From Okeania sp. (GTDB lineage Bacteria > Cyanobacteriota > Cyanobacteriia > Cyanobacteriales > Microcoleaceae), in NCBI RefSeq assembly GCF_035285525.1, contig NZ_JAYKGW010000187.1, positions 14,461 to 46,460 on the forward strand: 32,000 nucleotides of DNA, in the 5' to 3' direction. Numbering within the stretch: the first letter of the stretch is position 1; every line of letters begins with the position of its first letter. The position numbers were made by a program, and so were the translations under genes. The notes beneath the pieces were generated by a model. That model saw nothing but the letters and a program-made list of their open reading frames with translations, did not search any database and was not told the origin of the DNA. Shown here one piece after another: positions 8,448 to 32,000 of this stretch.

Positions 8448-8842
8448 TTTTTGACTTTTATTTTTAATTTTTTTGACTAAAGTTATAGTAATTCTCAAAA
8501 AGAATGAGGTACAAAATTCCTAATTTTTAGGCAATAGGAAATAGGAATTATCGTTATGTGGGAATAGGAAAAAAACTGTACCTCAGTTACTTGAGAAACG
8601 TTATTATTTCGAGTTACTACTCATTTTTTATACTTTCTTAGATCGAGAATTTATCAATTATAATTCTCCTCTGAATTAAATGATTTTGTAAGCATTCAGC
8701 TATTATAGCAATCAGCAATGAGATGTGAGAAAAAAACTGTAGGGGTTTGGTCTCCAATTTCTCGGGAACCGTACCCAAGTGTTAAGGGATTTAGAAACCA
8801 AACCCCGCATTTATAAAATCTTACAACCTATTTCAGATTGCT

Positions 8843-13900: not shown

Positions 13901-13969
13901 AACTGGAAAATTACAGATAACATCCTTATTATCATATTAGATAGTCTATTTAATAATTGTCCCAGATTT

Positions 13970-15442: not shown

Positions 15443-15731
15443 TTAATTAGGGCTGGTGTATCGAAAGTCTGGTGGTTAAGGTAGGGAGTAGGGAATAGGG
15501 AGTAGGGAATAAACCCACCCCTAGTCCCTCCCAAGAGGGGAATTTAGGAGGAATGAGAGTTATAGAGAAATTAGTTGTCAGAATTGTCTCTTAATTTTTG
15601 TTTCCTAGTGAGGAATTTACTGCTAACTTTTTTAATTTTTTTGACCTAAAATATGGTATTGTTCCCGACTTAAAGTTCCTAAAAGCTTTATCTTTGAATG
15701 GTTTTATATTTCCATACGCAAACCCTAATTA
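15443..15731. mobile_element. MITE-like element (~289 bp) of the same family, immediately upstream of the wzm-like gene
   Basis: Left end ttaattagggctggtgtatcgaaagtctggtggttaaggtagggagtaggg. Right end tttccatacgcaaaccctaatta is the reverse complement of TAATTAGGGTTTGCGTATGGAAA. Confidence 0.7.
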
Positions 15732-15778
15732 TCAATTATCCATTATTAATTATTAATTATTAATTATCCATTATTCAG

Positions 15779-16630
15779 ATGAAAGGAATTGTCCGCAAAA
15801 CTAGCAGGGTTAGCAATTGGTTGACCAAGGTAAATATTCATTGGTTAGTTAACTTAAACCTATTATTCACATTAGTAAGAAGAGATTTAGAAGCTAGATA
15901 TAAAGGCTCAGTTTTAGGCAACTTATGGCCACTACTTAATCAACTATCTCAACTTTTAATTTATACTTATGTCTTCTCGATTATTCTGAAAGTTAAGCTT
16001 GACCTCAAAGGATTACCAGCAGATAGTAAACTAACATTTGGATTATGGTTATTTGCTGGATTAATACCTTGGTTAGCTTTTACGAGTGGATTGACTCAAG
16101 CTTCTGGTTCTGTAATTACACAGCCTAATTTAGTTAAAAAATTAGTTTTTCCCCTTAGTTTATTACCCTTAGTTCCGATTCTTTCAACATTTATAGAAAG
16201 TACATTTGGATTAATAGCTTTAATAGTAATGTTTTATATATCATCTGGGGCAATAAATCAAACATTATTCCTGTTACCTTTAGTGGTTATACCTCAACTT
16301 TTATTAACAACAGGTTTAGGATATTTTACTGCTGGATTAACGGTATTTTTGCGAGATATTCCACAGACTTTAGGAGTAATTATTAATCTTTGGTTTTATG
16401 TTACGCCAATAGTATATCCGGCATCAGTAATTCCAGAAAATTGGCGAATTTGGGTGTTTTGGTTTAATCCTTTAACAGCGATCGCTGAAGTATATCGTGA
16501 CTTGGTTTTAGTAGGAGAAATTAAGCATTGGGGAGAGTTAGGAATTTCGGCTTTGATATCTCTACTAATTTTTTATTTTGGCTGGTGGGTTTATCAAAAA
16601 TTACGTCCTGCTTTTGCTGATGTTTTATAA
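15779..16630 (+). CDS. ABC-2 type polysaccharide export permease (Wzm/TagG/KpsM family)
   Basis: N-terminal RDLEARYKGSVLGNLWPLLNQL signature followed by six hydrophobic helices. It sits upstream of a Wzt-type ATPase. Confidence 0.9.
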   Translation: MKGIVRKTSRVSNWLTKVNIHWLVNLNLLFTLVRRDLEARYKGSVLGNLWPLLNQLSQLLIYTYVFSIILKVKLDLKGLPADSKLTFGLWLFAGLIPWLAFTSGLTQASGSVITQPNLVKKLVFPLSLLPLVPILSTFIESTFGLIALIVMFYISSGAINQTLFLLPLVVIPQLLLTTGLGYFTAGLTVFLRDIPQTLGVIINLWFYVTPIVYPASVIPENWRIWVFWFNPLTAIAEVYRDLVLVGEIKHWGELGISALISLLIFYFGWWVYQKLRPAFADVL

Positions 16631-16697
16631 GAAGTAAGAAGGAAGAAGGAAGAAGGAAGGAGGAAGGAGGAAGAAGGAAGGAGGAAGAAGGAAGAAG
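16631..16697. repeat. Purine-only heptamer array (GAAGGAA/GGAGGAA, about 9 units) starting right after the wzm-like stop
   Basis: gaagtaagaaggaagaaggaagaaggaaggaggaaggaggaagaaggaaggaggaagaaggaagaag has period 7. Pyrimidine-strand relatives at 1890-1935, 19590-19615, 19800-19820. Confidence 0.9.
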
Positions 16698-17173
16698 TCA
16701 ATAATTAATAATTACCAAAAAATGAGGTATAAAGCCTCCTCTTTGAAGGAGATGAAAAAATATTTAACACGGTTCCCGATAAATCAGTATTTCCAGCCTT
16801 CGACTTTAGTCGGAGCTTCGCTGATAACTGATAACTGAAATGACCTCTTCTTATAAAGAAAATGATTAGCTAAAAGGATTTTTTTCTTATTTATCCATGA
16901 ATGGAGAGACTTTATACTTTAATTTTTTCGTAAGAAGAAAGAAGGAAGAAATATTCAAAAAAAATTTAAAATTATGTACATCTCCAATGTAATTACTCCC
17001 CCTACCTAACTCCTAAATTCTAATTGGTATCGAAATCTTAGAACTTAAAAATCATTGATAAATTATAATAAAAAACTCTAATATGCTGAAAAATATAAGT
17101 AATTAATATGCAGGATTTTCCAAGTATTAAATGAATATTTAGCTTGACTAAAAGATACTAATTTTGGATTCAG

Positions 17174-17354
17174 TAATTAAGGCTTGCTGATTAAATATCA
17201 AAGCATTTATAGATAAAGGTTTGAACAATAAAAGTAAGGCTCAATTATGAATTAACAGTTATTCTAGAACTCCTCTAAATCCTAACTCTTAACTACTCCT
17301 TACTCCCTACTCCCTACCATAGCAAAAAGATTTTCCATAAGCAAACCCTAATTA
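17174..17354. mobile_element. MITE-like element (~181 bp), type-2 end + type-1 end, inside the wzm-wzt spacer
   Basis: Left end taattaaggcttgctgattaaatatcaaagcatttatagataaagg. Right end ctccctactccctaccatagcaaaaagattttccataagcaaaccctaatta. Confidence 0.7.
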
Positions 17355-17676
17355 ATAATTACTCTTAAAAAAATTGAGTATTAGTTCGGAGTGACTTATT
17401 TTCTTTTTTTCTCCCTAAAAAGAGAAGCTTTAAACCTTAAAACTTTGGTATATTTGTATTTTTCCTAGATTTTTAAATTGCTTTTTCCTGCTCCATTCTG
17501 AAATAGCTGATGACCTAATACTTATGAAAAAAGATTAATTTTTGACAAATTGAATATATAATATATACTACTAAATTTCCCTTTTATTTCCTGGGTTATG
17601 TTCCGCAAACATAATTTCACTTCTTGGAGATTAATTCCTCCTTCGATGTGATAATTAAGTTAATAACTAATAGCTG

Positions 17677-19089
17677 ATGGCTGATAGCTTATATATAAAA
17701 TCCATGATGCCTGAAACTGTAATTTCACTACAAAATGTTTCTAAATGTTTTAAGCGATATCCACATCCTGTAGATCGTTTAAAAGAAATTTTACTGCCTG
17801 GAAAAAGTCGTGCTGATGAATTTTGGGCAGTGCAAAATATAAACATAGAAATAGAAAGAGGACATACTTTAGGAATTGTAGGGCGGAATGGTTCAGGAAA
17901 AAGTACCCTTTTACAAATAATTGTTGGTACTTTAACACCAACAATAGGAAAAGTAAAAGTTCAAGGCAGAATTTCTGCTCTATTAGAACTTGGTAGTGGA
18001 TTTAATCCGGAATTTACAGGCAGGCAAAATGTTTTTTTTAATGCTCAGTTACTAGGATTAAAAATACCAGAAATTGAAGCAAAATTTGACCAAATTGCTA
18101 GTTTTGCTGATATTGGTGATTTTATTGACCAACCTGTAAAAACATATTCTAGTGGAATGTTTGTTAGATTAGGATTTGCTGTAGCTACCAGTGTAGAACC
18201 AGATATTTTAGTTGTTGATGAAGCACTTTCTGTAGGAGACGAAGCATTTCAAAGAAAATGTTTTGCTCGTATTCAAGACATTCAAGAAAGAGGAGGAACA
18301 ATATTATTTGTCTCTCATGCTGCTTCCACAGTTGTGCAACTTTGTGATTCAGCAATTTTGATGGATAATGGGGAAATGTTACTTTATCATACTCCTAAAT
18401 ATGTGGTTTCTAAATATCAGAAACTAATCTATGCTTTTCCTGATAAAGTTCCCTCCATTAGAGAAGAAATTCGCCAAATTCCTGATTTAACTATTCACGA
18501 TTTTTTTGATGATGAGGAGACAAATGAATCTACATCTAAATCTCAAGAAAATAGTGAAAATCAAAGTAAAGATAGGATTGCAGAAGCAACAGAATATGAA
18601 GAAATTTATGACCCAGAAATGATACCTTCAAATACTATACGTTATCCTGATAAAGGAGCAGAAATTATTGACCCCCATATTATTACTTTGGATGGTAAAA
18701 GAGTAAATCATTTAATTAATCGTCGGGAATATTACTACACATATAGAGTAAAATTTATTAATTCTACATCTAAAGTTAGGTTTGGAATGTTGATCAAAAC
18801 TCTTAGTGGTTTTGAGTTAGGAGGAGCGTCTTTACATAGTTCTACTAAATCTGTAGAATATGTTGCAGCTCAACAAATAGCTATAGTTAAATTTAAGTTT
18901 AAATGTTTACTAAATCCTGGTGTATATTTTTTAAATGCTGGAGTTGTGGGAATGGCAGACGATCATCTAACATATTTATCTCGTTGTATTGACATAGCTA
19001 TGTTTAGAGTGCAACATTGTAGTGATTCATCCGGTACGGGTGTGGTTGACTTTTTGATAGAACCTAGATTAATAATTAATAATGGATAA
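17677..19089 (+). CDS. Polysaccharide ABC exporter ATP-binding protein (Wzt/TagH type) with ~190-aa C-terminal extension
   Basis: Walker A GIVGRNGSGKSTLLQII, signature YSSGMFVRLGFA, Walker B ILVVDEALSVGD, H-loop FVSH. The C-terminal part (DKGAEIIDPHIITLDG...VYFLNAGV...FRVQ) looks like the Wzt C-terminal beta-sandwich. The ATG at 17677 lies inside a heptamer array; the ATGATG at 17704 (MMPETVISLQNVSK) is an alternative start. Confidence 0.9.
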   Translation: MADSLYIKSMMPETVISLQNVSKCFKRYPHPVDRLKEILLPGKSRADEFWAVQNINIEIERGHTLGIVGRNGSGKSTLLQIIVGTLTPTIGKVKVQGRISALLELGSGFNPEFTGRQNVFFNAQLLGLKIPEIEAKFDQIASFADIGDFIDQPVKTYSSGMFVRLGFAVATSVEPDILVVDEALSVGDEAFQRKCFARIQDIQERGGTILFVSHAASTVVQLCDSAILMDNGEMLLYHTPKYVVSKYQKLIYAFPDKVPSIREEIRQIPDLTIHDFFDDEETNESTSKSQENSENQSKDRIAEATEYEEIYDPEMIPSNTIRYPDKGAEIIDPHIITLDGKRVNHLINRREYYYTYRVKFINSTSKVRFGMLIKTLSGFELGGASLHSSTKSVEYVAAQQIAIVKFKFKCLLNPGVYFLNAGVVGMADDHLTYLSRCIDIAMFRVQHCSDSSGTGVVDFLIEPRLIINNG

Positions 19090-19372
19090 TGAAAAGTGTA
19101 TCTAATTATCAATTATTAATTACCTTTAGTTAAAGCCGATAGAATTGAATTAATTATGGAAATATTATTTCTTTTTTTTATGAAAAGGAAAGGTTTTAAA
19201 CCTCTGGAGATTAATTATAGAAATCAACTCTTATGTTGTCATAATTCAAAAACTAGAAATAAATTTTTAAACTCTTACCAATTGACCAAAAAAACTTGGG
19301 TAGTTACGCCTCTTCAAATAAGAGGATAAAAAAAGAAGGCTCGGTATTTAAAGCCTCCTTATTCCACAATAT

Positions 19373-19400
19373 ACTAATAACTAATAACTGATAACTGAAA
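19373..19400. repeat. Heptamer array TAATAAC/TGATAAC ending in CTGAAATAACC
   Basis: Direct reading. The same terminal motif closes the arrays at 16821-16845 and 29364-29431. Confidence 0.9.
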
Positions 19401-19765
19401 TAACCATTACCTACAGAAATATTCTTAAAAAGCTGTAAGATTATAGACACAAATAAAATAGAATTTCTAGATCAATTATCTATTAGTAAGTAGTGTAATT
19501 TTTTTCATTGTATATAATACTTTAAAATTCACCTACTTATTAAAGTCTACTATCGAAAAACTTGAGGTATTTGTTTGTTTACTAAATACCTTCTTTCTTT
19601 TTCCTTCTTCCGTAACCATTCAGCTATTCCTACGGAATGCGCTCGCATTCAGCAATAAGACCCTATGTTAAAGATAGGTTTTAAGTGAATATAGACTTTA
19701 GAGCTGACTTTATAGTAAAATTTTTTTAGCTTAATTAAGAGAGCTTTTATCACTTACTAAAAGCA

Positions 19766-19799
19766 ATAGCTGATAGCTGATGGCTGATGGCTGAATGCT
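19766..19799. repeat. Heptamer array ATAGCTG x2 / ATGGCTG x2
   Basis: atagctgatagctgatggctgatggctgaatgct read directly. A similar mixed array at 17664-17690 overlaps the annotated wzt-like start. Confidence 0.9.
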
Positions 19800-19832
19800 T
19801 ACCTTCTTCTTTCTTCCTTAAAATCTAAAAAT

Positions 19833-22685
19833 ATGAACACTGAAAAAATAGATTTCAATCATAAGTTAATTATAGATAATTTTCTTCAAGACCAAACTAC
19901 CAAACCGGAAATAATTAACATAAAAATTCATCCACAAGATGAAATGTATCTCTATGCTTTGAAAAATACAGATGGGAAAAAAGAAGAAGCTCTACTACGA
20001 TATTTTTCTAATGGCAAAAGAATTTTTGATGCAGTTAAACAAATTGTAGAATGGTATTTTAATGGTTTTGAAAATATCTCTTCTTTTTTAGATTTTGCTA
20101 GTGGTTATGGGCGTTTTAGTAGATTTTTGGTTCAGGAAATACCGACTAATAAAATATGGGTTTCAGATATTTATTCTGAAGCAGTAGAATTTCAAAAACA
20201 AGAGTTTGGTTTTGATGGGATAGCTTCAACTACTGCTCCTGAAGATTATCAAATAAATCAGAAGTTTGACTGCATTTTTGCTTGTTCTTTCTTTAGTCAT
20301 ATTCCTCAAAAAACTTTTGCTAGTTGGTTAGAAAAGTTATATAGTTGTTTAACTGAAAATGGCATATTAATATTCAGTACCCATGATTTATCTTTGATGA
20401 CTATAGAGACAGATATAGAGGCAGAAGAAATTTATTTTACTCCAGAAAGTGAAAGTCTTTTTCTGAATACTGAAGATTATGGAGTTACTTATGTGGGAGG
20501 AAAATGGGTAGGTAAAATAATTGAAAAAGTGACTCAGGGAAAAGCAAAATGGCATCGAATTAAAAAAGGTCTTTGTGGATTCCATGATTTATATATTATT
20601 GGGAAGGAGGAATTCTTTATAAATTCAAAAGTTAAAAGTCAGGATTCAAAAGTTGGAAAGGAAGAAGTATTAATAAATTCAGAAGTTAAAAGTCAGGATT
20701 CAAAAGTTGGAAAGGAAGAAGTATTAATAAATTCAGAAGCAAAAATAGAAGCAGAAGTAGAAAGTAATCAGTTAGAAGTATTTATAAATTCGGAAGAATT
20801 AGCAGAAAATAATCAGTCAGAATTATCTCTAAATTTAGAAATTAGGAAGGAAAAAGTTTGGGAACAAATAGATGAATTATTAAACTTTCATTGTCATCCT
20901 GATGGAGGTTGCCAAAAATTTGAAATTACAGCTACAGGGGAACTTTATTTAGAGGGATGGGCAGCAGATATTAATCAAGAAGAAAAGGTAGAAAAAATTT
21001 CAGTTTTAATCAATGGAAAAGAAGTAGTAAGCTGTTTACCTAAACCTGAAATTAAGAATAAAAAATATCAATGGTCATCTACTATTAAGAGTGAATATCT
21101 ATCACCAAATAACATTATCCTAGTAAAAATTATTAATAACTTCCATTTTGAACGAGTAGTTAATATTTCTCCTATTAATACCATTGCATTACTTCCACCA
21201 AGTCATCTGTTATTAAGAATAAGTGGTAACCCTAGTGTTAAAGCTTTTATTAGTTCATTTGATGATCTTAGACATACAATAAAAAATTACCTTCAAACCG
21301 CAGGATTTGATTTTAATCAATTTGAAAATATACTAGATTTCGGCTGTGGAGTCGGACGTTATTTAATGGCGTTTCAACCTGAACTTTTGCCTAATCAAAA
21401 ATTATTTGGTTGTGACGTTTTTCCCGAATGTGCTGAATGGTGTCAAGAAAATATTAAGTTTGCTACGGTTAAACGTAACGATATTCAACCACCTTTACCT
21501 TTTGAAAATAATCAGTTTGATTTAATTAATTCTATTTCAGTATTTACTCATCTAAGTATAGATTTACAACATCTTTGGGCTTGGGAAGTTTATCGAGTTT
21601 TGCGACCTGGGGGAATATTATTTATGACTCTTCACGGACCTCAATTTTTCCCAGTAGTTTATGATATTTTTCTGACTGGAAATGCTCATAAAGCGGAAAT
21701 GTATAGTATTGGTGAAGAGGGATTATTTTTATATCTTGACCATGAGGGAGAAAGAGATGGTCAAGGTCAAAATACTATTGCAGCAGTTCATACACCTGCT
21801 GCTTATCAAGAAATATTTTCTATGTTTAAACACATTAAAAGATTTCCTCAAAGTAATTTGGCAAATGGGCAAGATTTATATATTTTACAAAAGCCAATTT
21901 CTGGTACTTTGGTTGCTCAACCTCTGAATGTGAAGTCAAAGTTCAAAAGTCAAAATTCAAAAGTTAGAAGTAAGAAGTTAGAAGTTCAGAATTTTGAGAA
22001 TAAAGAAGATTTGGCAAAGACTCAGGAAGAAATAATCGGAAATATTGACTCAGATGTGATAACTCAAAAGTTGGAAGTTGACAATTTTGAGAAGGAGGAG
22101 AAAGTTGGAAATGTCGAAGAAGAAATAATGGGAAATATTGACTCCGAAGTGACAACTCAGAAGTTGGAAGTTGACAATTTTGACAATAAGGAGAAAGTTG
22201 CAAATGTCGAGGAGGAAATAATCGGACAAAATATAGAAGAGGAAAAAATTCTCATATCTGATAATAGAGAAACTCAAAATTTGTCGGAAGTGCCAAAAGT
22301 ACCTTTGTCTAGTGATGGAAAAATTGAAAATTTATCAGAGCAAACATTGTCTGAAAGTTATCACTCTCAAACTGAGATGAAGTTTCAATTACAAGGTCAA
22401 AAAATATTCCGAGTTTATCCACAAATTGAACCTATGGGAAATTATTCTCTTGCTTCTAAAATTGAAATTATTGACAGCAAAAACGAAGAAATTTTAGTGC
22501 AAAAAACTATTCCTTTAAATAATAAAAAAATATTTGGTAAAACTAACTATGGAGTGATACAAATAGAAATTCCTGAATACTCAGGAGAAGTAATTGTCAG
22601 ATTAAAAACTTTCATTACTGACTGGATTAATTTACCACTAGAACAAGAAGTATTAGTATATTGGAATTTTGCCAATTTTGCTTAG
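19833..22685 (+). CDS. Double class-I SAM-dependent methyltransferase protein with repeat linkers (950 aa)
   Basis: Two motif-I/post-I sets: LDFASGYGRFSRFL...FDCIFACSFFSHI...NGILIFSTH and ILDFGCGVGRYLMAF...FDLINSISVFTHL...PGGILFMTLHG. They are separated by tandem-repeat low-complexity linkers and a GW-containing beta-rich module. Confidence 0.8.
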   Translation: MNTEKIDFNHKLIIDNFLQDQTTKPEIINIKIHPQDEMYLYALKNTDGKKEEALLRYFSNGKRIFDAVKQIVEWYFNGFENISSFLDFASGYGRFSRFLVQEIPTNKIWVSDIYSEAVEFQKQEFGFDGIASTTAPEDYQINQKFDCIFACSFFSHIPQKTFASWLEKLYSCLTENGILIFSTHDLSLMTIETDIEAEEIYFTPESESLFLNTEDYGVTYVGGKWVGKIIEKVTQGKAKWHRIKKGLCGFHDLYIIGKEEFFINSKVKSQDSKVGKEEVLINSEVKSQDSKVGKEEVLINSEAKIEAEVESNQLEVFINSEELAENNQSELSLNLEIRKEKVWEQIDELLNFHCHPDGGCQKFEITATGELYLEGWAADINQEEKVEKISVLINGKEVVSCLPKPEIKNKKYQWSSTIKSEYLSPNNIILVKIINNFHFERVVNISPINTIALLPPSHLLLRISGNPSVKAFISSFDDLRHTIKNYLQTAGFDFNQFENILDFGCGVGRYLMAFQPELLPNQKLFGCDVFPECAEWCQENIKFATVKRNDIQPPLPFENNQFDLINSISVFTHLSIDLQHLWAWEVYRVLRPGGILFMTLHGPQFFPVVYDIFLTGNAHKAEMYSIGEEGLFLYLDHEGERDGQGQNTIAAVHTPAAYQEIFSMFKHIKRFPQSNLANGQDLYILQKPISGTLVAQPLNVKSKFKSQNSKVRSKKLEVQNFENKEDLAKTQEEIIGNIDSDVITQKLEVDNFEKEEKVGNVEEEIMGNIDSEVTTQKLEVDNFDNKEKVANVEEEIIGQNIEEEKILISDNRETQNLSEVPKVPLSSDGKIENLSEQTLSESYHSQTEMKFQLQGQKIFRVYPQIEPMGNYSLASKIEIIDSKNEEILVQKTIPLNNKKIFGKTNYGVIQIEIPEYSGEVIVRLKTFITDWINLPLEQEVLVYWNFANFA

Positions 22686-22814: not shown

Positions 22815-25800
22815 ATGAAATCAACAGTTTTAATTATTACAGGAATGCACCGTTCGGGAACTTCTTTAACTGCTTCTTTATTTCAGAGTGTAGGAGTAAA
22901 TATTGGGGAGAAATTAATTGGTCCTGAATATGGAAATATTAGAGGGCATTTTGAAGATATTGAGTTTGTTGAACTACATAAACAAATCTTGCGATCGCAA
23001 CATATTGATGAGTTGGGTAGCAATGTGGAAATTTCTGAAATTCCGGTTAAAGATGAATATTTGGAAGCAGCAAAAAGACTGATAGAAAATTGTCAAGTAA
23101 AAAATGAGAAAGTAAATAAATTTTGGGGATGGAAAGACCCGAGAACTACATTATTTTTAAGTTTTTGGTTGCGGTTATTGCCTGATGCTAAGTTTATTTT
23201 TGTTTATCGTTCCCCTTGGGAAGTTGTAGATTCTCTTTATCGTCGAGGTACTGATAAAAAGTTATTGGAACAACCAGAGTTAGCTGTGAAAATGTGGTGG
23301 GATTATAATCGGAGAATATTGGATTTTTATCAACAATTTTCGGCACAATGTTTAATTGGAAAAGTTGATACTATTGGCAAAAATTCTGAGGGTTTTATTG
23401 AAGCAGTTAATGAAAAATTTGAAATTGATTTGTCAGCGCCTCCCCCTGGGAATTTTACTGAATCTTTATTGGTGAAAGATATTAGTAAAACTACTAAACC
23501 TGGTTTGATAGAAAGATATTTTCCAGAAGCTTTAGAGGTTTATAAGGAATTAGAAAAAATTGGTGTGGAAGAAGGAGTCAGCAGCTTTTATGAAGTTAGA
23601 CTTCAGAAATTAGAAGTCGGTAGTGAAGTGTCTAAAGTTAAAGATGAAAATTTAGGTACTAAAAATTGGGAAGTCGGTAGTGGAGAGTCTAAAGTTAAAG
23701 CTGAAAAAGTGGGAAGTCAGAAATTAGAAGTTGGTAGTGAAGTGTCAGAAGTTAAAGATGAAAAGTTCGGTACTCAAAATTGGGAAGTCGGTAGTGAAGT
23801 GTCAGAAGTTAAAGCTGAAAAATTAGGTACTAAAAATTGGGAAGTCGGTAGTGAAGAGTCTAAAGTTAAAGATGAAAAGTTCGGTACTAAAAATTGGGAA
23901 GTCGGTAGTGGAGAGTCTAAAGTTAAAGCTGAAAAAGTGGGAAGTCAGAAATTAGAAGTTGGTAGTGAAGTGTCTAAAGTTAAAGATGAAAAAGTGGGAA
24001 GTCAAAATTTAGAAGTCGGTAGTGAAGAGTCTAAAGTTAAAGCTGAAAAATTAGGTACTAAAAATTTAGAAGTAGGTAGTGAAGAGTCAGAAATTGAAAC
24101 TAAATCAGAATTATGGGAATTTCGAGATTGGTTAAATATTCGGAGGTTAGAAAAACAAAATAATCTTTTAGAAAAACAAATTAATAGTTTAGAAACAGAT
24201 GTAGAAAGATGGAGAGAAATATTTCGAGAAGCACAACAGAAAGTAGGAAATTTAGAAACAGAATTAGGAGAAACTCAACAACAACTTGATAATAGAACAA
24301 TCAAACTTCAAGAGTCTGGTAAAAAATTAGAACTACTTGAAACAGAATTAGGTAAAACTCAAGTTCAACTTGAAGCTAGAGAAACAAATTTACAAGCATC
24401 TCAAACTAAAGTAGTTACATTAGAAAAAAAATTAGGGCAGACTCAATCTCAACTAGAAAATAATCAAATTAAATTACAACAGTCTCAAACAAAAATCTTT
24501 ATATTAGAAACAGACTTTGGGAAAACTCAGGCAGAACTTGATAACTCAAAAACTAAATTTAAAGAAGCATTAACTAAAATATCTAATTTAGAAACAAATT
24601 TAGGAGAAACTCAACTTCAACTAGATGGTACTCAAATTAAATTAACTGAGTCTCAGGAAAAAATTGGAATATTAGAAACTGATTTAGGAGAAACTCAAAA
24701 TCAACTTCAGAATCAAGTTCAGACAAATAAAATTCAATTAGGAGAATCTCAGGAAAAAATTGGAATATTAGAAACAAAATTAGGAGAAACTCAAATTACT
24801 CTCGAAGAAACCAAAGCAGAAATTTTAGCTATGAAATCTTCTAAGTTTTGGAAACTTCGAGAAAAGTGGTTTAGTTGGAAAGGGAAAATAAAAAAGGTTC
24901 TGAGAAGTTTACAACCGCGCTTCGTTTTTTCCATCGACTCTCCTATTAATTGGAAATTTTATAATTCTCAAATAGAAATAGTTGGTTGGTGTTTCCACAA
25001 TACTCTCGACATCCAAAATATTCGCGCCAAAATAGGAACAGAAATTTTTCTTGGTAATTATGGCATTCCACGAAAGGATGTTGCTCAACTTTATGAAGAA
25101 GTAAAAATTCAAAATTCAAAAGTAAAAATTCAAAAGTTAGAGATTGGAAGTAATGAGTTAGAAAATGAAGAAGTCGGAAGTAAAAAGTCAAATAATACCT
25201 CGACTCTAGAAAATTGTGGTTTGGAAATTTCTGCACAACTTTCTTCAGGAAATTATCAGTTAATTCTGGAAGCGGAGGATAAAAAGGGTAAGTGGCAAAA
25301 ATTTGCGAGTTATCCTATATCGGTATCTACTGTTGAGGCAAATTTTGATGCTCCGACAAATTGGGAACAACGGGAGGGAATAATTTTCTTTGCTGGTTGG
25401 TGTTGTCATCCAGAACAGAAAATTACTAAGTTAGTTTTAAAATGTGGGGGTATTTCTGTAGATTGTGCTTATGGTTTGCGTCGGAAAGATGTGGGGGAAG
25501 TTTTTCCAGATTGGGTGGGAAGTGAGTATAGTGGGTTTGAAGTAACTGTGGAAGTTCCATCGGGAAAATGGGAAGTTAGTTTAGAAGCATATTTGGAAAA
25601 TGGGGAAGTGGTAGGTTTTTCTTGTCAAGAAATTTTCAAACTAAAACGTTATAGTTTCTGGGATAAAACTCAGGATAAATTTCAAGATTTATATAAATTT
25701 AGTCAAGCTCTTCAGAAACGAGTTGCCGAAAGAAAACAAAGATTAGGTCGCATTTTACCTTTACCTTCAGAAATACCTAATATTGTCAGACAAATATTAA

Positions 25801-28800
25801 CTATATATAGAGAGCAACAAAAATTGGAGGGAGAATTATTACCTCCCCCTGAGTTTGTTTTGCCAGAAACTATAGATGTTTATGATGCTTGGTTAGCAGT
25901 AAATAAATGGGGCGATCGCTCTCGTCAATATTTAATGTCTCGTTTGGAAAGTTGTCGGACTGCTTTACCGAAAATTTCTGTGGTGATGCCTGTTTATAAT
26001 CCACCCCTAGAATTTTTGCGCAAGGGAATAGCCAGTGTACAAAACCAAGTATATCAAAATTGGGAATTTTGTATAGCGGATGATTGTAGTAGTAATTCGG
26101 ATGTTCGAGAAATTTTGACGGAAATAGCTCAGACTGACTCTCGGATTAAATTAATATTCCGTTCCGAAAATGGAAATATTAGTGCTGCGACTAATTCTGC
26201 TGCGGAACTTGCTACGGGAGATTTTATTCTTTTTATGGATAATGATGATGAACTTACTCCGGATGCTTTAGGAGAAGTTGCTCTATATATAAGTGAAAAT
26301 CCAGAGACGGATTTTCTTTATTCGGACGACGATAAAATTACTACGGAAGGGAAAAGATTCGCTCCTCAATTTAAACCAGAATATTCTCCAGAGTTGTTAC
26401 TTTCTTATATGTATATGGGGCATTTATGTGTAGTGAGAAAGGAAATTTTTGACAAAGTTGGAGGTTTAAGAATTGGTTTTGAAGGTTCTCAAGATTATGA
26501 TTTTGCTTTAAGAGCAACGGAATTTTCTCGTCATGTCGGACATCTACCTTTAGTATTATATCATTGGCGAACTTCTCCTGGTTCGACTGCTATTTCGGGG
26601 GGGGAAAAACCAAAGAGTTTTCTAGCAGGTGAAAAAGCAGTTCAAGAAAGTTTAATTCGTCGAGGTATAGCAGGAAAGGTTGCTCAACCAGATTGGGCAA
26701 TACGAGAAAATTTAGGAATTTTTAAACCTACTTTTCCTGATCAAGGTGATTCGGTGACTATTATTATTCCGACGAAAAATCAAGCTAAGTTATTGAAGGC
26801 TTGTATTGAGTCTTTGCAAAAGACAACTTATCAGAATTATCAAGTTTTTGTGATTGATAATGAAAGTGATGAGTCAGAGAGTTTAGAGTATTTGGCAAGT
26901 TTAAAAGATTTATTTTTAGGTGAAGCAAATGTATCGGTTTTGCCAATTCCTAATAATGATGGAAAGTTTAATTTTGCTGCCATAAATAATCGTGCTGTTG
27001 AGAGGGCAAAAACTGAATATATTTTATTTTTAAATAATGATACGGAGGTGATTTCTTCTAACTGGTTAAGTCAGATGATGGGTTATGCAAAAATTCCTGG
27101 AGTCGGAACAGTCGGAGCTAAATTAATTTATCCCGATCAAAGGATTCAACACGCTGGTGTGATTCATGGTTTACATCATGGTTTAGCAGGTCATGCTTTT
27201 AAATTATTATATAGTGAAAATAGGGGTTATCTTTCTCAAGCATTTGTGTCAAGAAATTATTCGGCAGTAACGGCAGCTTGTATGTTAACTCCTCGGAAAT
27301 TATTTTTAGATAATGGTGGTTTTGATGAGGAAAATTTTGCTGTTGCTTATAATGATGCAGATTATGGTTATCGACTTTTAAGAAGTGGTTATCGTTCGGT
27401 TTATTGTCCTGATGCTGAGTTGATTCATAAGGAAGGAACGAGTCGTGGTTATTCTGATAATCCTCAAGAGGAGGCAAATTATCGTCGGAAGTATTCTAGG
27501 ATGATAGATGGTTTTTATAGTCCTCATTTTTCTCTAGAAAGTGAGTTATTTGAAATTAAACCGAGAAGATATTTCATTGAAATTGAAAAGTCAAAATTCA
27601 CAAGTAAAAAATTAGAAAATTCTTCAAAAGAGTCAGAATTAAATTCTCAAACATTAGAGGAAAATTCTGCTAATGAACCAGAAATAGATGTTCAGACAAA
27701 AGTTGATAATCTGCCCAAAGATTCTCAAATAAATAGTCAGACAAAATTTGATATTTCTCAAAAAGAGTCAGAATTAAATTCTCAAACATTAGAGGAAAAT
27801 TCTCCTAATGAACTAGAAATAAATGTTCATAAAAAAGTTGATAATCTTCCCAAAGATTCCCAAATAAATAGTCAGACAAAATTTGATATTTCTCAAAAAG
27901 AGTCAGAATTAAACTCTCAAGCAAGAGACTGCCTGTTCCCTCATACAAACATTAAAATATTGATGTGTAGTAATTCCTTAGACTTAACTGGTGCACCACT
28001 TCATCAATTAGAAATTGCCCTAAAATTAGCCAAAGACGGAATTATTGAACCAATAATATTTTGTGTCAGCGATGGGGAACTTCGAGAAATTTATCAACAA
28101 CAAAATATTCAAGTAATTGTTAAAGAAAACCCCCTAGAACATATCTATCAAATAGATGCTTATAACGCAGCCTTAACCACCTTTGCTGAACAAATAAAAT
28201 CTCTAAATATTGATGTTATGTATATCAACACTTTAGAAAACTTTTTCATGGTAGATGTCGCTCAAATGTTAAACATTCCTAGTGTTTGGAATGTGCATGA
28301 AAGTCAACCTTGGCAAACATATTTTAATCGTTTTGGAAACGAGATAGCTGCCAGAGCATTAGAATGTTTCCGTTATCCTTATCGGATAATTTTTGTTGCT
28401 GATGCTACTCGAAATAGATACCTTCCTTTAAATAGTCATCATAACTTTACCGTCCTTCATAATGGATTAGATTTAGAACTATTAAAAAAAGCAGCAACTA
28501 AATGGTCTAGAAAAGAAGCAAGGTCAACTTTAGGAGTACAAAAAGATGAAATAGTTATTCTCTTATTAGGTACTGTCTGCGAAAGAAAAGGTCAACATGA
28601 TTTAGTAAAATCTCTATCATTTATTCCAGAAAAAGAAATAGAAAAAATCAAATGTTTTATAGTAGGTGATCGCCCGAATCTTTATAGTTTAAAATTACAT
28701 GAACTTGTCAAAAATTTGCCAGAAGAAGTTCAGAAAAAAGTAGAAATAGTAGGAGAAACTCCTGATACGGCAAAATATTATCAAGCAGCAGATATATTTG

Positions 28801-29171
28801 TTTGTACTTCTCGAATAGAAAGTTTTCCCAGAGTAATATTAGAAGCAATGGCTTATAATTTACCAATAGTTACTACTCCAGTTTTTGGCATAGTTGAACA
28901 AGTTAAACCAAATATTAATGGTTTGTTTTATACTCCAGAAAATCCAGAAGAATTAGCAAATGTTTTGACATCTTTATTAATAGATGAAGAGTTACGTCAG
29001 AGATTTGCTAATAATGCTAAATATGTATTGGAGTCGTTAAATACTTTTGCAGAAATGACCGAAACTTATGGTGAAATATTCCAAGAAGCTTACTTTTCTT
29101 TAGATAAATTAGCGCACAAGGATTATACCACGGCACACAAGGATTTAGGCACGGATACACGGATTAATTAG
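22815..29171 (+). CDS. 2118-aa multidomain glycan assembly protein: sulfotransferase, 19-aa repeats, ~230-aa coiled coil, duplicated beta-rich module, GT2, GT2, 45-aa repeats, GT4
   Basis: AAGGAG Shine-Dalgarno at 22799-22804. Sulfotransferase PAPS motifs ITGMHRSGTS and FIFVYRSPWEVVDS. Seven 28-aa LETxLGxTQxQL heptad-based repeats. GT2 #1 ISVVMPVYNPP...DDCS...FMDNDDE. GT2 #2 VTIIIPTKNQ...IDNESD...LNNDTE. GT4 ExxxxxxxE motif ESFPRVILEAMAYNLPIV. Confidence 0.85.
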   Translation: MKSTVLIITGMHRSGTSLTASLFQSVGVNIGEKLIGPEYGNIRGHFEDIEFVELHKQILRSQHIDELGSNVEISEIPVKDEYLEAAKRLIENCQVKNEKVNKFWGWKDPRTTLFLSFWLRLLPDAKFIFVYRSPWEVVDSLYRRGTDKKLLEQPELAVKMWWDYNRRILDFYQQFSAQCLIGKVDTIGKNSEGFIEAVNEKFEIDLSAPPPGNFTESLLVKDISKTTKPGLIERYFPEALEVYKELEKIGVEEGVSSFYEVRLQKLEVGSEVSKVKDENLGTKNWEVGSGESKVKAEKVGSQKLEVGSEVSEVKDEKFGTQNWEVGSEVSEVKAEKLGTKNWEVGSEESKVKDEKFGTKNWEVGSGESKVKAEKVGSQKLEVGSEVSKVKDEKVGSQNLEVGSEESKVKAEKLGTKNLEVGSEESEIETKSELWEFRDWLNIRRLEKQNNLLEKQINSLETDVERWREIFREAQQKVGNLETELGETQQQLDNRTIKLQESGKKLELLETELGKTQVQLEARETNLQASQTKVVTLEKKLGQTQSQLENNQIKLQQSQTKIFILETDFGKTQAELDNSKTKFKEALTKISNLETNLGETQLQLDGTQIKLTESQEKIGILETDLGETQNQLQNQVQTNKIQLGESQEKIGILETKLGETQITLEETKAEILAMKSSKFWKLREKWFSWKGKIKKVLRSLQPRFVFSIDSPINWKFYNSQIEIVGWCFHNTLDIQNIRAKIGTEIFLGNYGIPRKDVAQLYEEVKIQNSKVKIQKLEIGSNELENEEVGSKKSNNTSTLENCGLEISAQLSSGNYQLILEAEDKKGKWQKFASYPISVSTVEANFDAPTNWEQREGIIFFAGWCCHPEQKITKLVLKCGGISVDCAYGLRRKDVGEVFPDWVGSEYSGFEVTVEVPSGKWEVSLEAYLENGEVVGFSCQEIFKLKRYSFWDKTQDKFQDLYKFSQALQKRVAERKQRLGRILPLPSEIPNIVRQILTIYREQQKLEGELLPPPEFVLPETIDVYDAWLAVNKWGDRSRQYLMSRLESCRTALPKISVVMPVYNPPLEFLRKGIASVQNQVYQNWEFCIADDCSSNSDVREILTEIAQTDSRIKLIFRSENGNISAATNSAAELATGDFILFMDNDDELTPDALGEVALYISENPETDFLYSDDDKITTEGKRFAPQFKPEYSPELLLSYMYMGHLCVVRKEIFDKVGGLRIGFEGSQDYDFALRATEFSRHVGHLPLVLYHWRTSPGSTAISGGEKPKSFLAGEKAVQESLIRRGIAGKVAQPDWAIRENLGIFKPTFPDQGDSVTIIIPTKNQAKLLKACIESLQKTTYQNYQVFVIDNESDESESLEYLASLKDLFLGEANVSVLPIPNNDGKFNFAAINNRAVERAKTEYILFLNNDTEVISSNWLSQMMGYAKIPGVGTVGAKLIYPDQRIQHAGVIHGLHHGLAGHAFKLLYSENRGYLSQAFVSRNYSAVTAACMLTPRKLFLDNGGFDEENFAVAYNDADYGYRLLRSGYRSVYCPDAELIHKEGTSRGYSDNPQEEANYRRKYSRMIDGFYSPHFSLESELFEIKPRRYFIEIEKSKFTSKKLENSSKESELNSQTLEENSANEPEIDVQTKVDNLPKDSQINSQTKFDISQKESELNSQTLEENSPNELEINVHKKVDNLPKDSQINSQTKFDISQKESELNSQARDCLFPHTNIKILMCSNSLDLTGAPLHQLEIALKLAKDGIIEPIIFCVSDGELREIYQQQNIQVIVKENPLEHIYQIDAYNAALTTFAEQIKSLNIDVMYINTLENFFMVDVAQMLNIPSVWNVHESQPWQTYFNRFGNEIAARALECFRYPYRIIFVADATRNRYLPLNSHHNFTVLHNGLDLELLKKAATKWSRKEARSTLGVQKDEIVILLLGTVCERKGQHDLVKSLSFIPEKEIEKIKCFIVGDRPNLYSLKLHELVKNLPEEVQKKVEIVGETPDTAKYYQAADIFVCTSRIESFPRVILEAMAYNLPIVTTPVFGIVEQVKPNINGLFYTPENPEELANVLTSLLIDEELRQRFANNAKYVLESLNTFAEMTETYGEIFQEAYFSLDKLAHKDYTTAHKDLGTDTRIN

Positions 29172-29363: not shown

Positions 29364-29424
29364 ACTAATAACTAATAACTAATAACTAATAACTAATAAC
29401 TGATAACTGATAACTGATAACTGA
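29364..29424. repeat. Longest STRR-type array in the window: TAATAAC x5 then TGATAAC x3
   Basis: actaataactaataactaataactaataactaataactgataactgataactgataactg read directly. Confidence 0.95.
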
Positions 29425-29454: not shown

Positions 29455-30312
29455 ATGATTTTTATTAACCCTAAAACAGATTTTGCTTTCAAGAAAATTT
29501 TTGGTTCTGAAAAGAGCAAAGATATTTTAATTAGTTTCTTAAACGGCATCCTTTATGATGGTAATCCTACCATTAAAGACTTGGAAATTCTTAATCCTTA
29601 TCTTGTACCAAAAGTTCGGGGATTAAAAGATACTTATTTAGATGTTAAAGCTAAAATTACTGGCAAAAAAACTGTGATTATTGAAATGCAAGTCTTAAAC
29701 CTAGAAGGATTTGAGAAACGGATTTTATATAATGCAGCTAAATCTTATTCGACTCAATTAGACTCAGGAGAAGATTATACTTTATTGAATCCTGTAATTG
29801 CTTTGACTATTACAGATTTTGAGATGTTTTCTGGATTAGATAAAGTGATTTCTCGGTTTCTATTAAAGGAAAAAGAATACTTGATAGATTATCCAATTTA
29901 CGACATTGAATTAATATTTGTAGAATTGCCAAAATTCCAGAAAGAAATTTCAGAATTAGTAACTCTTACTGATAAATGGCTTTATTTTCTCAAGAGTGCG
30001 AATGATTTAGATTCTGTACCAGAAATCATGGAAGAAGTACCAGAAATAAATAAAGCATTTGTAGTTGCTAATCAAGCTAATTTAACTAGGGAAGAAATTG
30101 AAAATTTAGAGGCTAGACAAATCTATATATATGACCAAAAAAATTCTATTAAAAGAGCTAAGAATCAAGCAATCGAGGAAGGTAAACAAATAGGTATTCG
30201 AGAAACTCAAATTGAAATTGCCAAAAAATTACTTGAGTTTTTAGATGTAGAAATAGTTAGTAAAAATACAGGTCTGAGTTTAGAAGAAGTTAAACATTTG
30301 AGAGAACAATAA
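29455..30312 (+). CDS. Rpn-family recombination-promoting nuclease / PD-(D/E)XK putative transposase
   Basis: Characteristic N-terminus MIFINPKTDFAFKKIFGSEKSKDILISFLNGIL, then DLEILNPY...DTYLDVKAK...VIIEMQV (D...E-x-Q nuclease core) and FVELPKF. Confidence 0.85.
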   Translation: MIFINPKTDFAFKKIFGSEKSKDILISFLNGILYDGNPTIKDLEILNPYLVPKVRGLKDTYLDVKAKITGKKTVIIEMQVLNLEGFEKRILYNAAKSYSTQLDSGEDYTLLNPVIALTITDFEMFSGLDKVISRFLLKEKEYLIDYPIYDIELIFVELPKFQKEISELVTLTDKWLYFLKSANDLDSVPEIMEEVPEINKAFVVANQANLTREEIENLEARQIYIYDQKNSIKRAKNQAIEEGKQIGIRETQIEIAKKLLEFLDVEIVSKNTGLSLEEVKHLREQ

Positions 30313-31874: not shown

Positions 31875-31933
31875 AAAAAAAGCCCTCTAGCCAAAATTGA
31901 CCAAGGGACTATAACTATCAGGGTGCATCTACT
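31875..31933 (-). ncRNA. Candidate ~60-nt sRNA, copy 2 of a tandem pair
   Basis: Minus strand: TATACT (31940-31945), a 6-nt spacer, AGTAGATGCACCCTGATAGTTAT, an imperfect hairpin (AGTCCCTTGGTC...GGCTAGAGGGCT), then T9. Confidence 0.4.
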
Positions 31934-32000
31934 AAAATTAGTATAGCTTAAACTAGGGGGTAAAACCCCTCACTTAGTTATATTTATTAATTATAAAAAA

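What the first reader, a model, noticed from the sequence alone, without database searches (positions are those of the whole stretch)
22815..29171. 2118-aa sulfotransferase / coiled-coil / GT2 / GT2 / GT4 megaprotein: terminator, molecular ruler and polymerase in one chain?
The domain order is unusual. It begins with an N-terminal PAPS-type sulfotransferase (GMHRSGTS; FVYRSPWEVVDS). Next comes a ~500-nt block of 19-aa repeats, then ~230 aa of heptad-based 28-aa repeats (LETxLGxTQxQL) ending in the MKSSKFWKLREKWF motif. Two copies of a beta-rich module (IVGWCFH / FAGWCCH) follow, then two GT2 domains with DxD motifs and a C-terminal GT4. In ABC-transporter-dependent O-antigen systems (E. coli O9a WbdD/WbdA, Klebsiella O12 WbbB), a chain-terminating enzyme sits at a fixed distance from the polymerase through a coiled coil that sets glycan length. 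The same logic appears here in a single polypeptide, with sulfation as the putative capping chemistry, next to Wzm/Wzt. At ~0.15 nm rise per residue the coiled coil would span roughly 30+ nm if continuous.
Basis: partly seen in the sequence, partly recalled or inferred. Interest (0 to 1): 0.75.

Follow-up and report, generated by a model that had tools for sequence, protein, structure and literature searches.

The report
Sulfotransferase–coiled-coil–glycosyltransferase glycan assembly fusion
One 2118-residue cyanobacterial protein joins a sulfate-adding enzyme, a long rod-like coiled coil and three sugar-adding enzymes beside a polysaccharide export pump; it looks like a sulfate-using variant of the known "molecular ruler" machines that set the length of bacterial surface sugar chains.

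Summary
The protein is 100% identical to an Okeania sp. "glycosyltransferase". It has full-length relatives in at least 129 species-level genomes of Microcoleaceae/Oscillatoriales, including Trichodesmium erythraeum IMS101.

Domain order: PAPS-type sulfotransferase (ST), 160-aa repeat linker unique to this strain and predicted disordered, 241-aa heptad coiled coil, basic Trp/Phe-rich helix, two Ig-like β-sandwiches, GT2, GT2, GT4. The gene follows wzm, wzt (with a Wzt_C carbohydrate-binding module) and a double methyltransferase.

Other cyanobacteria carry the same parts split. A stand-alone ST–coiled-coil–"SKFWKLR" protein sits next to Wzm/Wzt_C and separate GTs, once beside an APS kinase. 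This mirrors WbdD/WbdA (split) versus WbbB or Klebsiella O7 ORF6 (fused).

Coil length ranges from 216 to 482 aa across relatives and is almost always ≡6 mod 7. Trichodesmium variants differ only by 7- and 28-aa units.

Best reading: a terminator–ruler–polymerase of the known kind with sulfation as a candidate new cap. Capping, ruler action and glycan identity are inferred, not shown. The disordered linker weakens the "fixed distance" idea for this particular protein.

The parts
22815..23579 (+). N-terminal PAPS-type sulfotransferase domain (aa 1-255): candidate chain terminator
   Evidence: Pfam Sulfotransfer_3 above cutoff. The family profile hits CurM and OLS sulfotransferases. AF2 pLDDT ~90. 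The top 41 Foldseek PDB hits are all PAPS sulfotransferases. The 5'-PSB residues R13-S17 and the 3'-PB residues R132/S140 are invariant.
23598..24104 (+). 19-aa (57-nt) tandem-repeat linker, aa 262-430, rich in E/K/V/S/G; a strain-specific insertion predicted to be disordered
   Evidence: TRF finds 8.5 copies at 83% match. AF2 pLDDT is 32-47 with no secondary structure. There is no 3.5-residue periodicity. The block is absent from all relatives.
24114..24839 (+). Heptad coiled coil (aa 434-675) built of 28-aa LETxLGxTQxQL repeats and bounded by the conserved WxFxDW and SSKxW motifs: candidate molecular ruler
   Evidence: No proline. One heptad register runs from aa 434 to about aa 630, followed by a +4 shift. 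Periodicity z = 8.8. AF2 predicts helices at aa 434-537 and 550-674. Coil length in relatives is 216-482 aa, and 52 of 55 are ≡6 mod 7.
24840..24911 (+). Basic, Trp/Phe-rich helix SKFWKLREKWFSWKGKIKKVLRSL (aa 676-699): candidate membrane-interface anchor
   Evidence: AF2 predicts a helix at aa 677-699. Net charge is +9 with 5 aromatic residues in 28 aa. The same motif lies 20-35 aa from the C-terminus of stand-alone ST–coil proteins. The membrane role is inferred by analogy to WbdD.
24921..25325 (+). Ig-like β-sandwich module 1 (aa 703-837), interrupted by a strain-specific low-confidence insertion at aa ~754-793
   Evidence: AF2 pLDDT is ~90 outside the insertion. Foldseek gives generic Fn3/BIg/SGBP-like matches. 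The module is homologous to module 2.
25335..25646 (+). Ig-like β-sandwich module 2 (aa 841-944), carrying the highly conserved FAGWCCH...GLRRKDV motif
   Evidence: AF2 pLDDT ~90. Invariant columns are listed. The motif served as the search pattern that recovered 129 genomes.
25656..25952 (+). Helical linker (aa 948-1046) with the conserved KQRLGRIxPLP motif
   Evidence: AF2 predicts helices at aa 948-977, 984-1003 and 1022-1046, with lower confidence. Invariant residues are listed.
25968..26669 (+). GT2 module 1 (aa 1052-1285), DxD at aa 1142-1146
   Evidence: Pfam Glycos_transf_2. Matches chondroitin synthase K4CP, PDB 2z86, at E 3.6e-20. DxD located.
26754..27455 (+). GT2 module 2 (aa 1314-1547)
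   Evidence: Pfam Glyco_tranf_2_3 and Glyco_tranf_2_2. Together with GT2 module 1 it is 45% identical to the stand-alone GT2-GT2 protein of Gloeocapsopsis.
27608..27920 (+). 135-nt x2.3 in-frame repeat linker between GT2 module 2 and GT4
   Evidence: TRF, 92% match.
27942..29093 (+). GT4 (GT-B) module (aa 1710-2093), EX7E at aa 2002
   Evidence: Pfam Glycos_transf_1 and Glyco_trans_4_5. Matches PDB 4xso (Alr3699) at E 8.7e-20. EX7E located.
15779..16630 (+). Wzm, ABC-2 permease
   Evidence: Pfam ABC2_membrane, E 3.4e-24.
17677..19089 (+). Wzt ATPase with a C-terminal Wzt_C carbohydrate-binding module (aa 320-458)
   Evidence: Pfam ABC_tran plus Wzt_C, E 2.5e-25. The nucleotide-binding domain matches Aquifex Wzt, PDB 8dku, at E 1e-69.
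19833..22685 (+). 950-aa protein with two SAM-methyltransferase domains and no coiled coil: a decorating enzyme or an alternative capping enzyme
   Evidence: Pfam Methyltransf_12/25/11 at two sites. No long proline-free heptad region. A methyltransferase occupies this position in Microcoleus and Trichodesmium.

Best explanation
The gene encodes a cytoplasmic, membrane-peripheral, single-chain assembly machine for a lipid-linked surface polysaccharide exported by the adjacent Wzm/Wzt ABC transporter.

Proposed steps:
1. The C-terminal GT2-GT2-GT4 modules polymerise the glycan at the inner face of the membrane (domains shown; activity inferred).
2. The basic Trp/Phe-rich helix after the coiled coil, together with the two Ig-like modules, holds this end at the membrane (inferred).
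3. The ~36-nm heptad coiled coil, probably a parallel homo-oligomer, projects the N-terminal PAPS-dependent sulfotransferase away from the membrane.
4. Only chains long enough to reach the sulfotransferase are sulfated at their non-reducing end. This stops extension.
5. The sulfate creates the epitope read by the Wzt_C module, which licenses export (inferred from the WbdD/WbbB paradigm).

The protein is the fused format of a two-protein system common in cyanobacteria: an ST–coiled-coil–SKFWKLR terminator plus separate GTs. In this Okeania strain a recent, disordered 160-aa repeat insertion tethers the sulfotransferase to the rod.
For: Shown here:
- Sulfotransferase fold and PAPS-binding motifs.
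- Three GT modules with catalytic motifs.
- No transmembrane segment: the highest 19-aa Kyte-Doolittle mean is 1.35.
- Coiled coil with significant heptad periodicity and no proline.
- Wzm and Wzt+Wzt_C in the operon-like cluster.
- The gene order RuvB / UCP020893 / Wzm / Wzt_C / methyltransferase / megaprotein is conserved in Microcoleus vaginatus PCC 9802 and in a Trichodesmium MAG.

Comparative evidence:
- More than 7900 homologues of this ST subfamily were found. The 120 best hits listed are mostly 200-475-aa proteins, nearly all cyanobacterial where a source names the organism; of these, 22 of 120 end in a coiled coil plus SKFWKLR.
- In all three stand-alone contexts examined, the gene lies beside Wzt_C (Wzm also called in two).
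- In one locus the order is RuvB / UCP020893 / Wzm / Wzt_C / APS kinase / ST-coil / GT4 / GT2 / GT2. This is the same chromosomal slot as the window, with a PAPS-making enzyme.
- The Gloeocapsopsis GT2-GT2 protein adjacent to its ST-coil protein is 45% identical to aa 1052-1582.
- Coil length between the two conserved end motifs is 216-482 aa, with 23 distinct values; 52 of 55 are ≡6 mod 7.
- In species-level genomes, 22 of 26 are ≡6 mod 7, including the complete T. erythraeum IMS101 genome at 377 aa.
- Trichodesmium variants differ only by 7- and 28-aa units in the membrane-proximal third. One-sided changes of this kind fit a parallel rod and do not fit a folded-back hairpin.

Established knowledge: in every characterised capped system the terminator sits at the distal end of a coiled-coil ruler, and a Wzt CBM reads the cap (PMC11231755).
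Against: - No biochemical or glycan data exist for this family. A terminal sulfate cap has not been described in the papers I could search.
- Cyanobacteria are known to sulfate polysaccharides along the chain (PMC8205485).
- The cluster also encodes a double methyltransferase that could supply a methyl cap.
- In this strain a predicted-disordered 160-aa tether separates the ST from the rod. Its rms reach is ~7 nm and its contour length ~61 nm, so the ST is not at a fixed distance.
- The query coil has a +4 register shift near aa 630. Its length is ≡3 mod 7, not 6.
- The AF2 monomer model breaks the helix at aa 538-549. A hairpin cannot be excluded without a multimer model.
- The hydrophobic moment of the putative anchor helix is unremarkable on the Eisenberg scale, 0.2-0.46.
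- Heptad-quantised variation would also arise automatically from slippage of 21- and 84-nt repeats. Some of the variant lengths come from short-read metagenome assemblies.
- There is no APS kinase in the window.
- In Synechocystis, Wzm/Wzt mutants changed EPS rather than O-antigen (PMC4390846), so the glycan may not be O-antigen.
Confidence: 0.55

Rival explanations
1. The sulfotransferase decorates the polymer along its length, giving a sulfated capsule or EPS as in other cyanobacteria. Any chain-terminating cap is a methyl group from the neighbouring double methyltransferase. The coiled coil serves only to oligomerise or scaffold the enzyme complex.
For: - Cyanobacterial sulfated polysaccharides carry internal sulfates, and ABC-type clusters with sulfotransferases were suggested to make sulfated CPS (PMC8205485).
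- A methyltransferase gene is conserved immediately upstream of the megaprotein, and methyl caps are established elsewhere.
- Several related clusters hold a second sulfotransferase without a coil, so sulfation is not limited to one event.
Against: - The methyltransferase protein has no coiled coil. In all characterised systems the terminator is the domain on the distal end of the coil.
- Stand-alone ST-coil-SKFWKLR proteins reproduce the WbdD layout.
- A decorating enzyme would be expected close to the polymerase active sites, not 30-70 nm away from them.
Confidence: 0.25
2. The coiled coil is a spacer or oligomerisation rod whose length is selectively neutral. The wide length variation reflects only replication slippage of 21- and 84-nt repeats (partly assembly artefact). 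Chain length is set instead by transporter-to-polymerase stoichiometry, as in Klebsiella O2a.
For: - All length differences are whole repeat units, as slippage predicts.
- Many of the variant sequences come from short-read metagenome contigs, and one locus has the repeats masked by N.
- Stoichiometry-based length control is known for systems without caps.
Against: - The ≡6 mod 7 phase also holds between distant genera whose repeat sequences differ: Microcoleus 216, Kamptonema 216, Okeania 328-482, P0046 440.
- Complete or isolate genomes also differ: IMS101 377, PCC 9802 216.
- Wzt carries a CBM, the hallmark of capped, ruler-controlled systems.
Confidence: 0.15
3. The N-terminal domain is catalytically inert or acts on a non-glycan substrate such as a lipid, a protein or a small molecule. 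Its fusion to the polymerase would then be incidental.
For: Sulfotransfer_3 relatives include enzymes acting on polyketides (CurM, OLS) and on protein tyrosine. The Pfam score is modest at 34.9 bits.
Against: - The PAPS-binding residues are invariant across 59 sequences.
- The domain is linked to Wzm/Wzt_C and GT genes in 6 of 6 contexts examined. One of these includes an APS kinase.
Confidence: 0.05

Closest known systems
WbbB of Klebsiella pneumoniae O12 / Raoultella terrigena (single-chain terminator–coiled coil–polymerase)
   Same: One polypeptide carries an N-terminal terminator, a coiled-coil ruler and C-terminal polymerising GT modules. It works with Wzm/Wzt, whose CBM reads the cap (PMC11231755).
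   Different: The WbbB terminator is a GT99 β-Kdo transferase, not a sulfotransferase, and no sequence match to it was found. WbbB has two GT modules. The window protein has GT2-GT2-GT4, two Ig-like modules and a basic aromatic helix between the coil and the GTs. Its coil is 241 aa, and up to 482 aa in relatives.
ORF6 of Klebsiella pneumoniae O7 (methyltransferase-kinase + CBM – coiled coil – GT2-GT2)
   Same: The order is N-terminal terminator, coiled coil, then two C-terminal GT2 modules. An extra β-rich (CBM-like) domain is present in the same chain.
   Different: The ORF6 cap is methyl-phosphate. According to that paper, its CBM sits with the terminator head, whereas here the Ig-like pair lies on the membrane side of the coil. 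The window protein also has a third (GT4) module in the same chain.
WbdD + WbdA of E. coli O9a / Klebsiella O3 (separate terminator-ruler and polymerase)
   Same: WbdD has an N-terminal catalytic head, an extended coiled coil and a C-terminal membrane-associated amphipathic helix with a polymerase docking site. The stand-alone cyanobacterial ST–coil–SKFWKLR proteins copy this layout, and the window protein is their fused version.
   Different: The WbdD head is a kinase plus methyltransferase. Its polymerase is a separate GT4 mannosyltransferase. There is no sequence homology in the head.
Cyanobacterial stand-alone ST–coiled-coil proteins (e.g. Kamptonema formosum P0189, Oscillatoria princeps P0175, Gloeocapsopsis P0145), annotated only as 'sulfotransferase', 'ParA' or 'chromosome segregation ATPase-like'
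   Same: The ST domain is 45-52% identical. They share the WxFxDW start motif, a heptad coil and the SKFWKLR end motif, and they neighbour Wzm/Wzt_C and GT2 genes.
   Different: They are not fused to GTs. Their coils are shorter, ~83-139 aa where both end motifs were located. They have no Ig-like modules.
Xss sulfotransferases of the synechan pathway (Synechocystis PCC 6803)
   Same: They are cyanobacterial PAPS-dependent sulfation enzymes acting on an extracellular polysaccharide (PMC8205485).
   Different: Synechan is made by a Wzx/Wzy-type pathway. Its sulfotransferases are separate decorating enzymes, and that paper does not mention a coiled coil (0 occurrences).

Membership tests
Coiled-coil 'molecular ruler' terminator systems of ABC-transporter-dependent glycan assembly (WbdD/WbbB type) | Wzm/Wzt ABC-2 exporter encoded in the same locus | tested here: met
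   ABC2_membrane (E 3e-24) and ABC_tran (E 4e-22) lie upstream on the same strand. The arrangement is conserved in relatives.
Coiled-coil 'molecular ruler' terminator systems of ABC-transporter-dependent glycan assembly (WbdD/WbbB type) | Wzt carries a C-terminal carbohydrate-binding module that reads the cap | tested here: met
   Wzt_C (PF14524) at aa 320-458, E 2.5e-25. It is present in 6 of 6 related contexts. Cap binding itself was not tested.
Coiled-coil 'molecular ruler' terminator systems of ABC-transporter-dependent glycan assembly (WbdD/WbbB type) | Extended coiled coil in the terminator-bearing protein | tested here: met
   A 241-aa proline-free heptad region with periodicity z 8.8. 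AF2 predicts long helices. The oligomeric state and continuity are untested; there is a +4 shift near aa 630 and an AF2 break at aa 538-549.
Coiled-coil 'molecular ruler' terminator systems of ABC-transporter-dependent glycan assembly (WbdD/WbbB type) | A non-polymerising modifying enzyme at the end of the coil distal from the polymerase and membrane | tested here: met
   The sulfotransferase is N-terminal of the coil, and the GTs and basic helix are C-terminal. That the enzyme actually terminates chains was not tested.
Coiled-coil 'molecular ruler' terminator systems of ABC-transporter-dependent glycan assembly (WbdD/WbbB type) | Membrane-associating amphipathic helix at the proximal end of the coil | tested here: inconclusive
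   A conserved helix at aa 677-699 has net charge +9 and 5 aromatic residues, and it is C-terminal in the stand-alone homologues. The Eisenberg hydrophobic moment is only 0.2-0.46.
Coiled-coil 'molecular ruler' terminator systems of ABC-transporter-dependent glycan assembly (WbdD/WbbB type) | Glycan modal length changes with coil length, and the cap is required for export | not testable with these tools
   This needs genetics and glycan profiling. Only the natural heptad-quantised length variation was documented.
PAPS-dependent sulfotransferases (Pfam Sulfotransfer_3 clan) | 5'-phosphosulfate-binding loop (xxRSGTS/T) and 3'-phosphate-binding R...S motif | tested here: met
   R13-S14-G15-T16-S17, R132 and S140 are invariant in 59 sequences.
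PAPS-dependent sulfotransferases (Pfam Sulfotransfer_3 clan) | Sulfotransferase α/β fold | tested here: met
   AF2 pLDDT ~90 for aa 1-255. The Foldseek top 41 hits are all sulfotransferases, with target-normalised TM 0.4-0.5. Pfam scores above the gathering cutoff.
WbbB proper (GT99 β-Kdo transferase terminator) | N-terminal GT99 Kdo-transferase domain | tested here: not met
   The N-terminus is a sulfotransferase. No PDB or Pfam match to a Kdo transferase was found. The protein therefore works like WbbB but is not a WbbB family member.
WbdD proper (kinase/methyltransferase terminator) | Kinase and/or SAM-methyltransferase head on the coiled coil | tested here: not met
   There is no kinase or methyltransferase domain in the coil-bearing protein. 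The methyltransferases are in a separate protein without a coil.

The most novel reading that the evidence does not exclude
Sulfation would be a previously uncharacterised chain-terminating cap chemistry for ABC-transporter-dependent glycans, read by a sulfate-specific Wzt CBM. It would be widespread in cyanobacteria in both split and fused formats. In bloom-forming Trichodesmium and Okeania, the ruler would be a hypervariable, heptad-quantised rod (216-482 aa, ~32-72 nm) whose copy-number changes retune surface-glycan length between closely related populations, for example under phage or grazer pressure.
Probability: 0.35. Interest if true: 0.75.

Novelty: new variant of a known kind. Interest (0 to 1): 0.58.

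Why it matters
- If the sulfotransferase is the terminator, this adds a new capping chemistry and a new CBM specificity to the molecular-ruler paradigm. So far that paradigm rests on a few enterobacterial prototypes.
- It would extend the paradigm to ecologically dominant cyanobacteria: Trichodesmium, Okeania, Microcoleus.
- The family supplies a ready-made natural experiment. Catalytic domains are near-identical while coils range from 216 to 482 residues in heptad steps. The ruler hypothesis could therefore be tested by comparing glycan lengths across existing strains, including the complete-genome strains IMS101 and PCC 9802.
- It would give a function to thousands of cyanobacterial proteins now named "sulfotransferase", "ParA" or "chromosome segregation protein".
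- It bears on how sulfated cyanobacterial surface glycans are made. These glycans are relevant to metal binding, colony formation and biomaterials.

Tried and rejected
- **19-aa repeat block as part of the ruler or a folded domain.** Rejected. It is unique to this strain, has no heptad signal, and AF2 gives pLDDT 32-47 with no secondary structure.
- **β modules as a specific CBM family.** Foldseek gave only generic tandem Ig/Fn3/BIg matches with low TM. No family was assigned.
- **β module shared with the methyltransferase protein.** Only a weak similarity was found (E 0.06). Not claimed.
- **Amphipathic-helix test by Eisenberg hydrophobic moment.** Inconclusive.
- **Intramolecular hairpin reading of the AF2 break at aa 538-549.** Considered unlikely because natural indels are one-sided.
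- **Literature.** Mann, Kimber & Whitfield 2019 (Glycobiology 29:822), Whitfield et al. 2020 and Williams et al. 2017 are not held. I could not check whether sulfotransferase terminators were already listed in that census. Six full-text searches combining "sulfotransferase" with other terms found nothing describing a sulfotransferase–coiled-coil terminator.
- **P0189 genomic context.** Not on record.
- **Motif-based coil measurement.** The regular expressions failed for about half of the Microcoleus-type sequences, so the mod-7 statistic covers 55 proteins and 26 genomes, not all relatives.

Full report
**Observation.** The window holds a single open frame at 22815-29171 (+) of 2118 codons. 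Its product is 100% identical to a protein that NCBI lists only as "glycosyltransferase [Okeania sp.]".
- Sulfotransfer_3 at aa 7-175, above Pfam's cutoff; two GT2 modules; a C-terminal GT4.
- A 57-nt x8.5 tandem repeat at 23607-24088 and 84/168-nt repeats at 24227-24707.
- The MKSSKFWKLREKWF motif at aa 673-686, and two mutually homologous β modules.
- Upstream on the same strand: Wzm, a Wzt carrying the Wzt_C carbohydrate-binding module, and a 950-aa protein with two SAM-methyltransferase domains.

**Anatomy.**
- Sulfotransferase head. A profile of the N-terminal domain hits the CurM and olefin-synthase sulfotransferases. The AF2 model of aa 1-255 has pLDDT ~90, and its 41 best PDB matches are all PAPS sulfotransferases. 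The PAPS-binding residues R13-S17, R132 and S140 are invariant in 59 relatives.
- Repeat linker. The 19-aa block (aa 262-430) is predicted disordered, with pLDDT 32-47 and no secondary structure. It has no heptad signal.
- Coiled coil. Residues 434-675 contain no proline and keep one heptad register for about 190 residues, followed by a +4 shift near aa 630. Their 3.5-residue periodicity is matched by none of 500 shuffles. AF2 models them as helices 434-537 and 550-674.
- Membrane-proximal part. A basic helix at aa 677-699 (net +9, five aromatic residues) is followed by two confident Ig-like β-sandwiches and a helical linker. The β-sandwiches match only generic Fn3/BIg/SGBP folds.
- No transmembrane segment is present.

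**Relatives and context.**
- Full-length relatives at 51-74% identity occur in Trichodesmium, Dapis, Okeania, Kamptonema, Microcoleus and Tychonema. A pattern scan found 129 species-level genomes, including the complete T. erythraeum IMS101 chromosome.
- The gene order RuvB / UCP020893 / Wzm / Wzt_C / methyltransferase / megaprotein is conserved in M. vaginatus PCC 9802 and in a Trichodesmium MAG.
- The sulfotransferase subfamily has more than 7900 homologues. The 120 best hits listed are mostly 200-475-aa proteins from cyanobacteria; 22 of them carry the sulfotransferase, the WxFxDW motif, a heptad coil and a C-terminal TSKFWKLR motif. This is the WbdD layout.
- All three such genes examined lie beside Wzt_C (Wzm also called in two).
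  - In one metagenomic locus the same RuvB / UCP020893 / Wzm / Wzt_C slot continues with APS kinase, ST-coil, GT4, GT2 and GT2 as separate genes.
  - In Gloeocapsopsis the ST-coil gene is followed by a GT2-GT2 protein that is 45% identical to aa 1052-1582 of the window protein.
- The megaprotein is therefore the fused format of a split system.

**The coil as a variable rod.**
- Between the two conserved end motifs the coil measures 216-482 aa in 55 relatives, with 23 distinct lengths. Of these, 52 are ≡6 mod 7. In species-level genomes 22 of 26 are, with IMS101 at 377 aa.
- Trichodesmium variants are identical over the first ~240 residues. They differ only in the copy number of a 28-aa unit and a 7-aa LEQTQxx unit in the membrane-proximal third, and every gap is a multiple of 7.
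- One-sided heptad steps fit a parallel rod and argue against an intramolecular hairpin.
- Slippage of 21- and 84-nt repeats would also produce this pattern, and some of the lengths come from short-read assemblies.
- The query is atypical. Its coil is 241 aa (≡3 mod 7). It alone has the 160-aa disordered insertion: ST-to-coil spacing is 424 aa, against 256-278 in all relatives.

**Mechanism.** The characterised paradigm places the terminator at the distal end of a coiled-coil ruler, the polymerase and an amphipathic helix at the membrane end, and a Wzt CBM that exports only capped chains (PMC11231755). Every sequence-level element of that paradigm is present here, with a sulfotransferase as the only distal catalytic domain. 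I therefore favour sulfate capping at a coil-defined distance. This is inference. No activity, glycan structure or length data exist. Sulfation along the chain (PMC8205485) or a methyl cap from the neighbouring methyltransferase remain live alternatives. The glycan could be capsule or EPS rather than O-antigen (PMC4390846).

**Novelty.** Single-chain terminator–coil–polymerase proteins are already known, namely WbbB and Klebsiella O7 ORF6. I found no description of a sulfotransferase terminator, of this family, or of its heptad-quantised length polymorphism. However, the 2019 bioinformatic census of terminators could not be read. I rate the finding a new variant of a known kind, of moderate to high interest. 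The main reason is that natural coil variants make the ruler hypothesis directly testable in environmentally important cyanobacteria.

Noticed in passing
window 31875-31934 (-): Rfam match to NsiR1 (RF02399, nitrogen stress-induced sRNA of cyanobacteria): 47.6 bits against a gathering score of 39.
   Followed up: no
window 15481-15508, 15727-15774, 16629-16697, 17293-17317, 19368-19396, 19766-19794, 29364-29422: Heptanucleotide tandem arrays, for example (AAGAAGG)x10 and (ACTAATA)x8, fill the intergenic spaces of the cluster. Non-coding gaps of about 1 kb and about 0.75 kb separate wzm from wzt (16631-17676) and wzt from the methyltransferase gene (19090-19832).
   Followed up: no
window 20599-20739, 22026-22226, 23607-24088, 25074-25193, 27608-27920: Both large genes of the cluster carry recent in-frame K/E/S/V-rich tandem repeats or insertions, all at domain boundaries. 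The methyltransferase protein has 54-nt and 93-nt repeats. The megaprotein has 57-nt and 135-nt repeats, plus an insertion inside Ig-like module 1. Relatives lack most of them.
   Followed up: partly
window 29455-30312 (+): A PD-(D/E)XK_2 'transposase' (Rpn-like) gene lies directly after the megaprotein. In Microcoleus and Trichodesmium the cluster continues downstream of the megaprotein with a methyltransferase and a GT4 (PF12000) gene, so the 3' end of the cluster appears rearranged in this strain.
   Followed up: partly
window 9891-11195 (+): A 434-aa RRXRR + HNH endonuclease protein (PF14239, E 1e-65). It is a mobile-element-type nuclease near the cluster.
   Followed up: no
window 13865-14506 (+): A 213-aa ORF between ruvB and wzm has no hit in my Pfam copy. 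It occupies the position of the conserved UCP020893 (PF27721) gene that precedes wzm in Microcoleus, in Trichodesmium and in a metagenomic cyanobacterial locus. Its link to the glycan cluster is unexplained.
   Followed up: no
L002 18461-19198; L003 7040-7867; L005 7248-8078: Related clusters carry a second, coil-less sulfotransferase (Sulfotransfer_1 or Sulfotransfer_3). These glycans may therefore be sulfated both internally and terminally.
   Followed up: no
window 3793-4605 (-), 6549-8498 (-): A RusA-like resolvase fused to DUF3102, and a 649-aa HlyD-type membrane-fusion protein, lie upstream of the cluster. Neither has an evident link to it.
   Followed up: no
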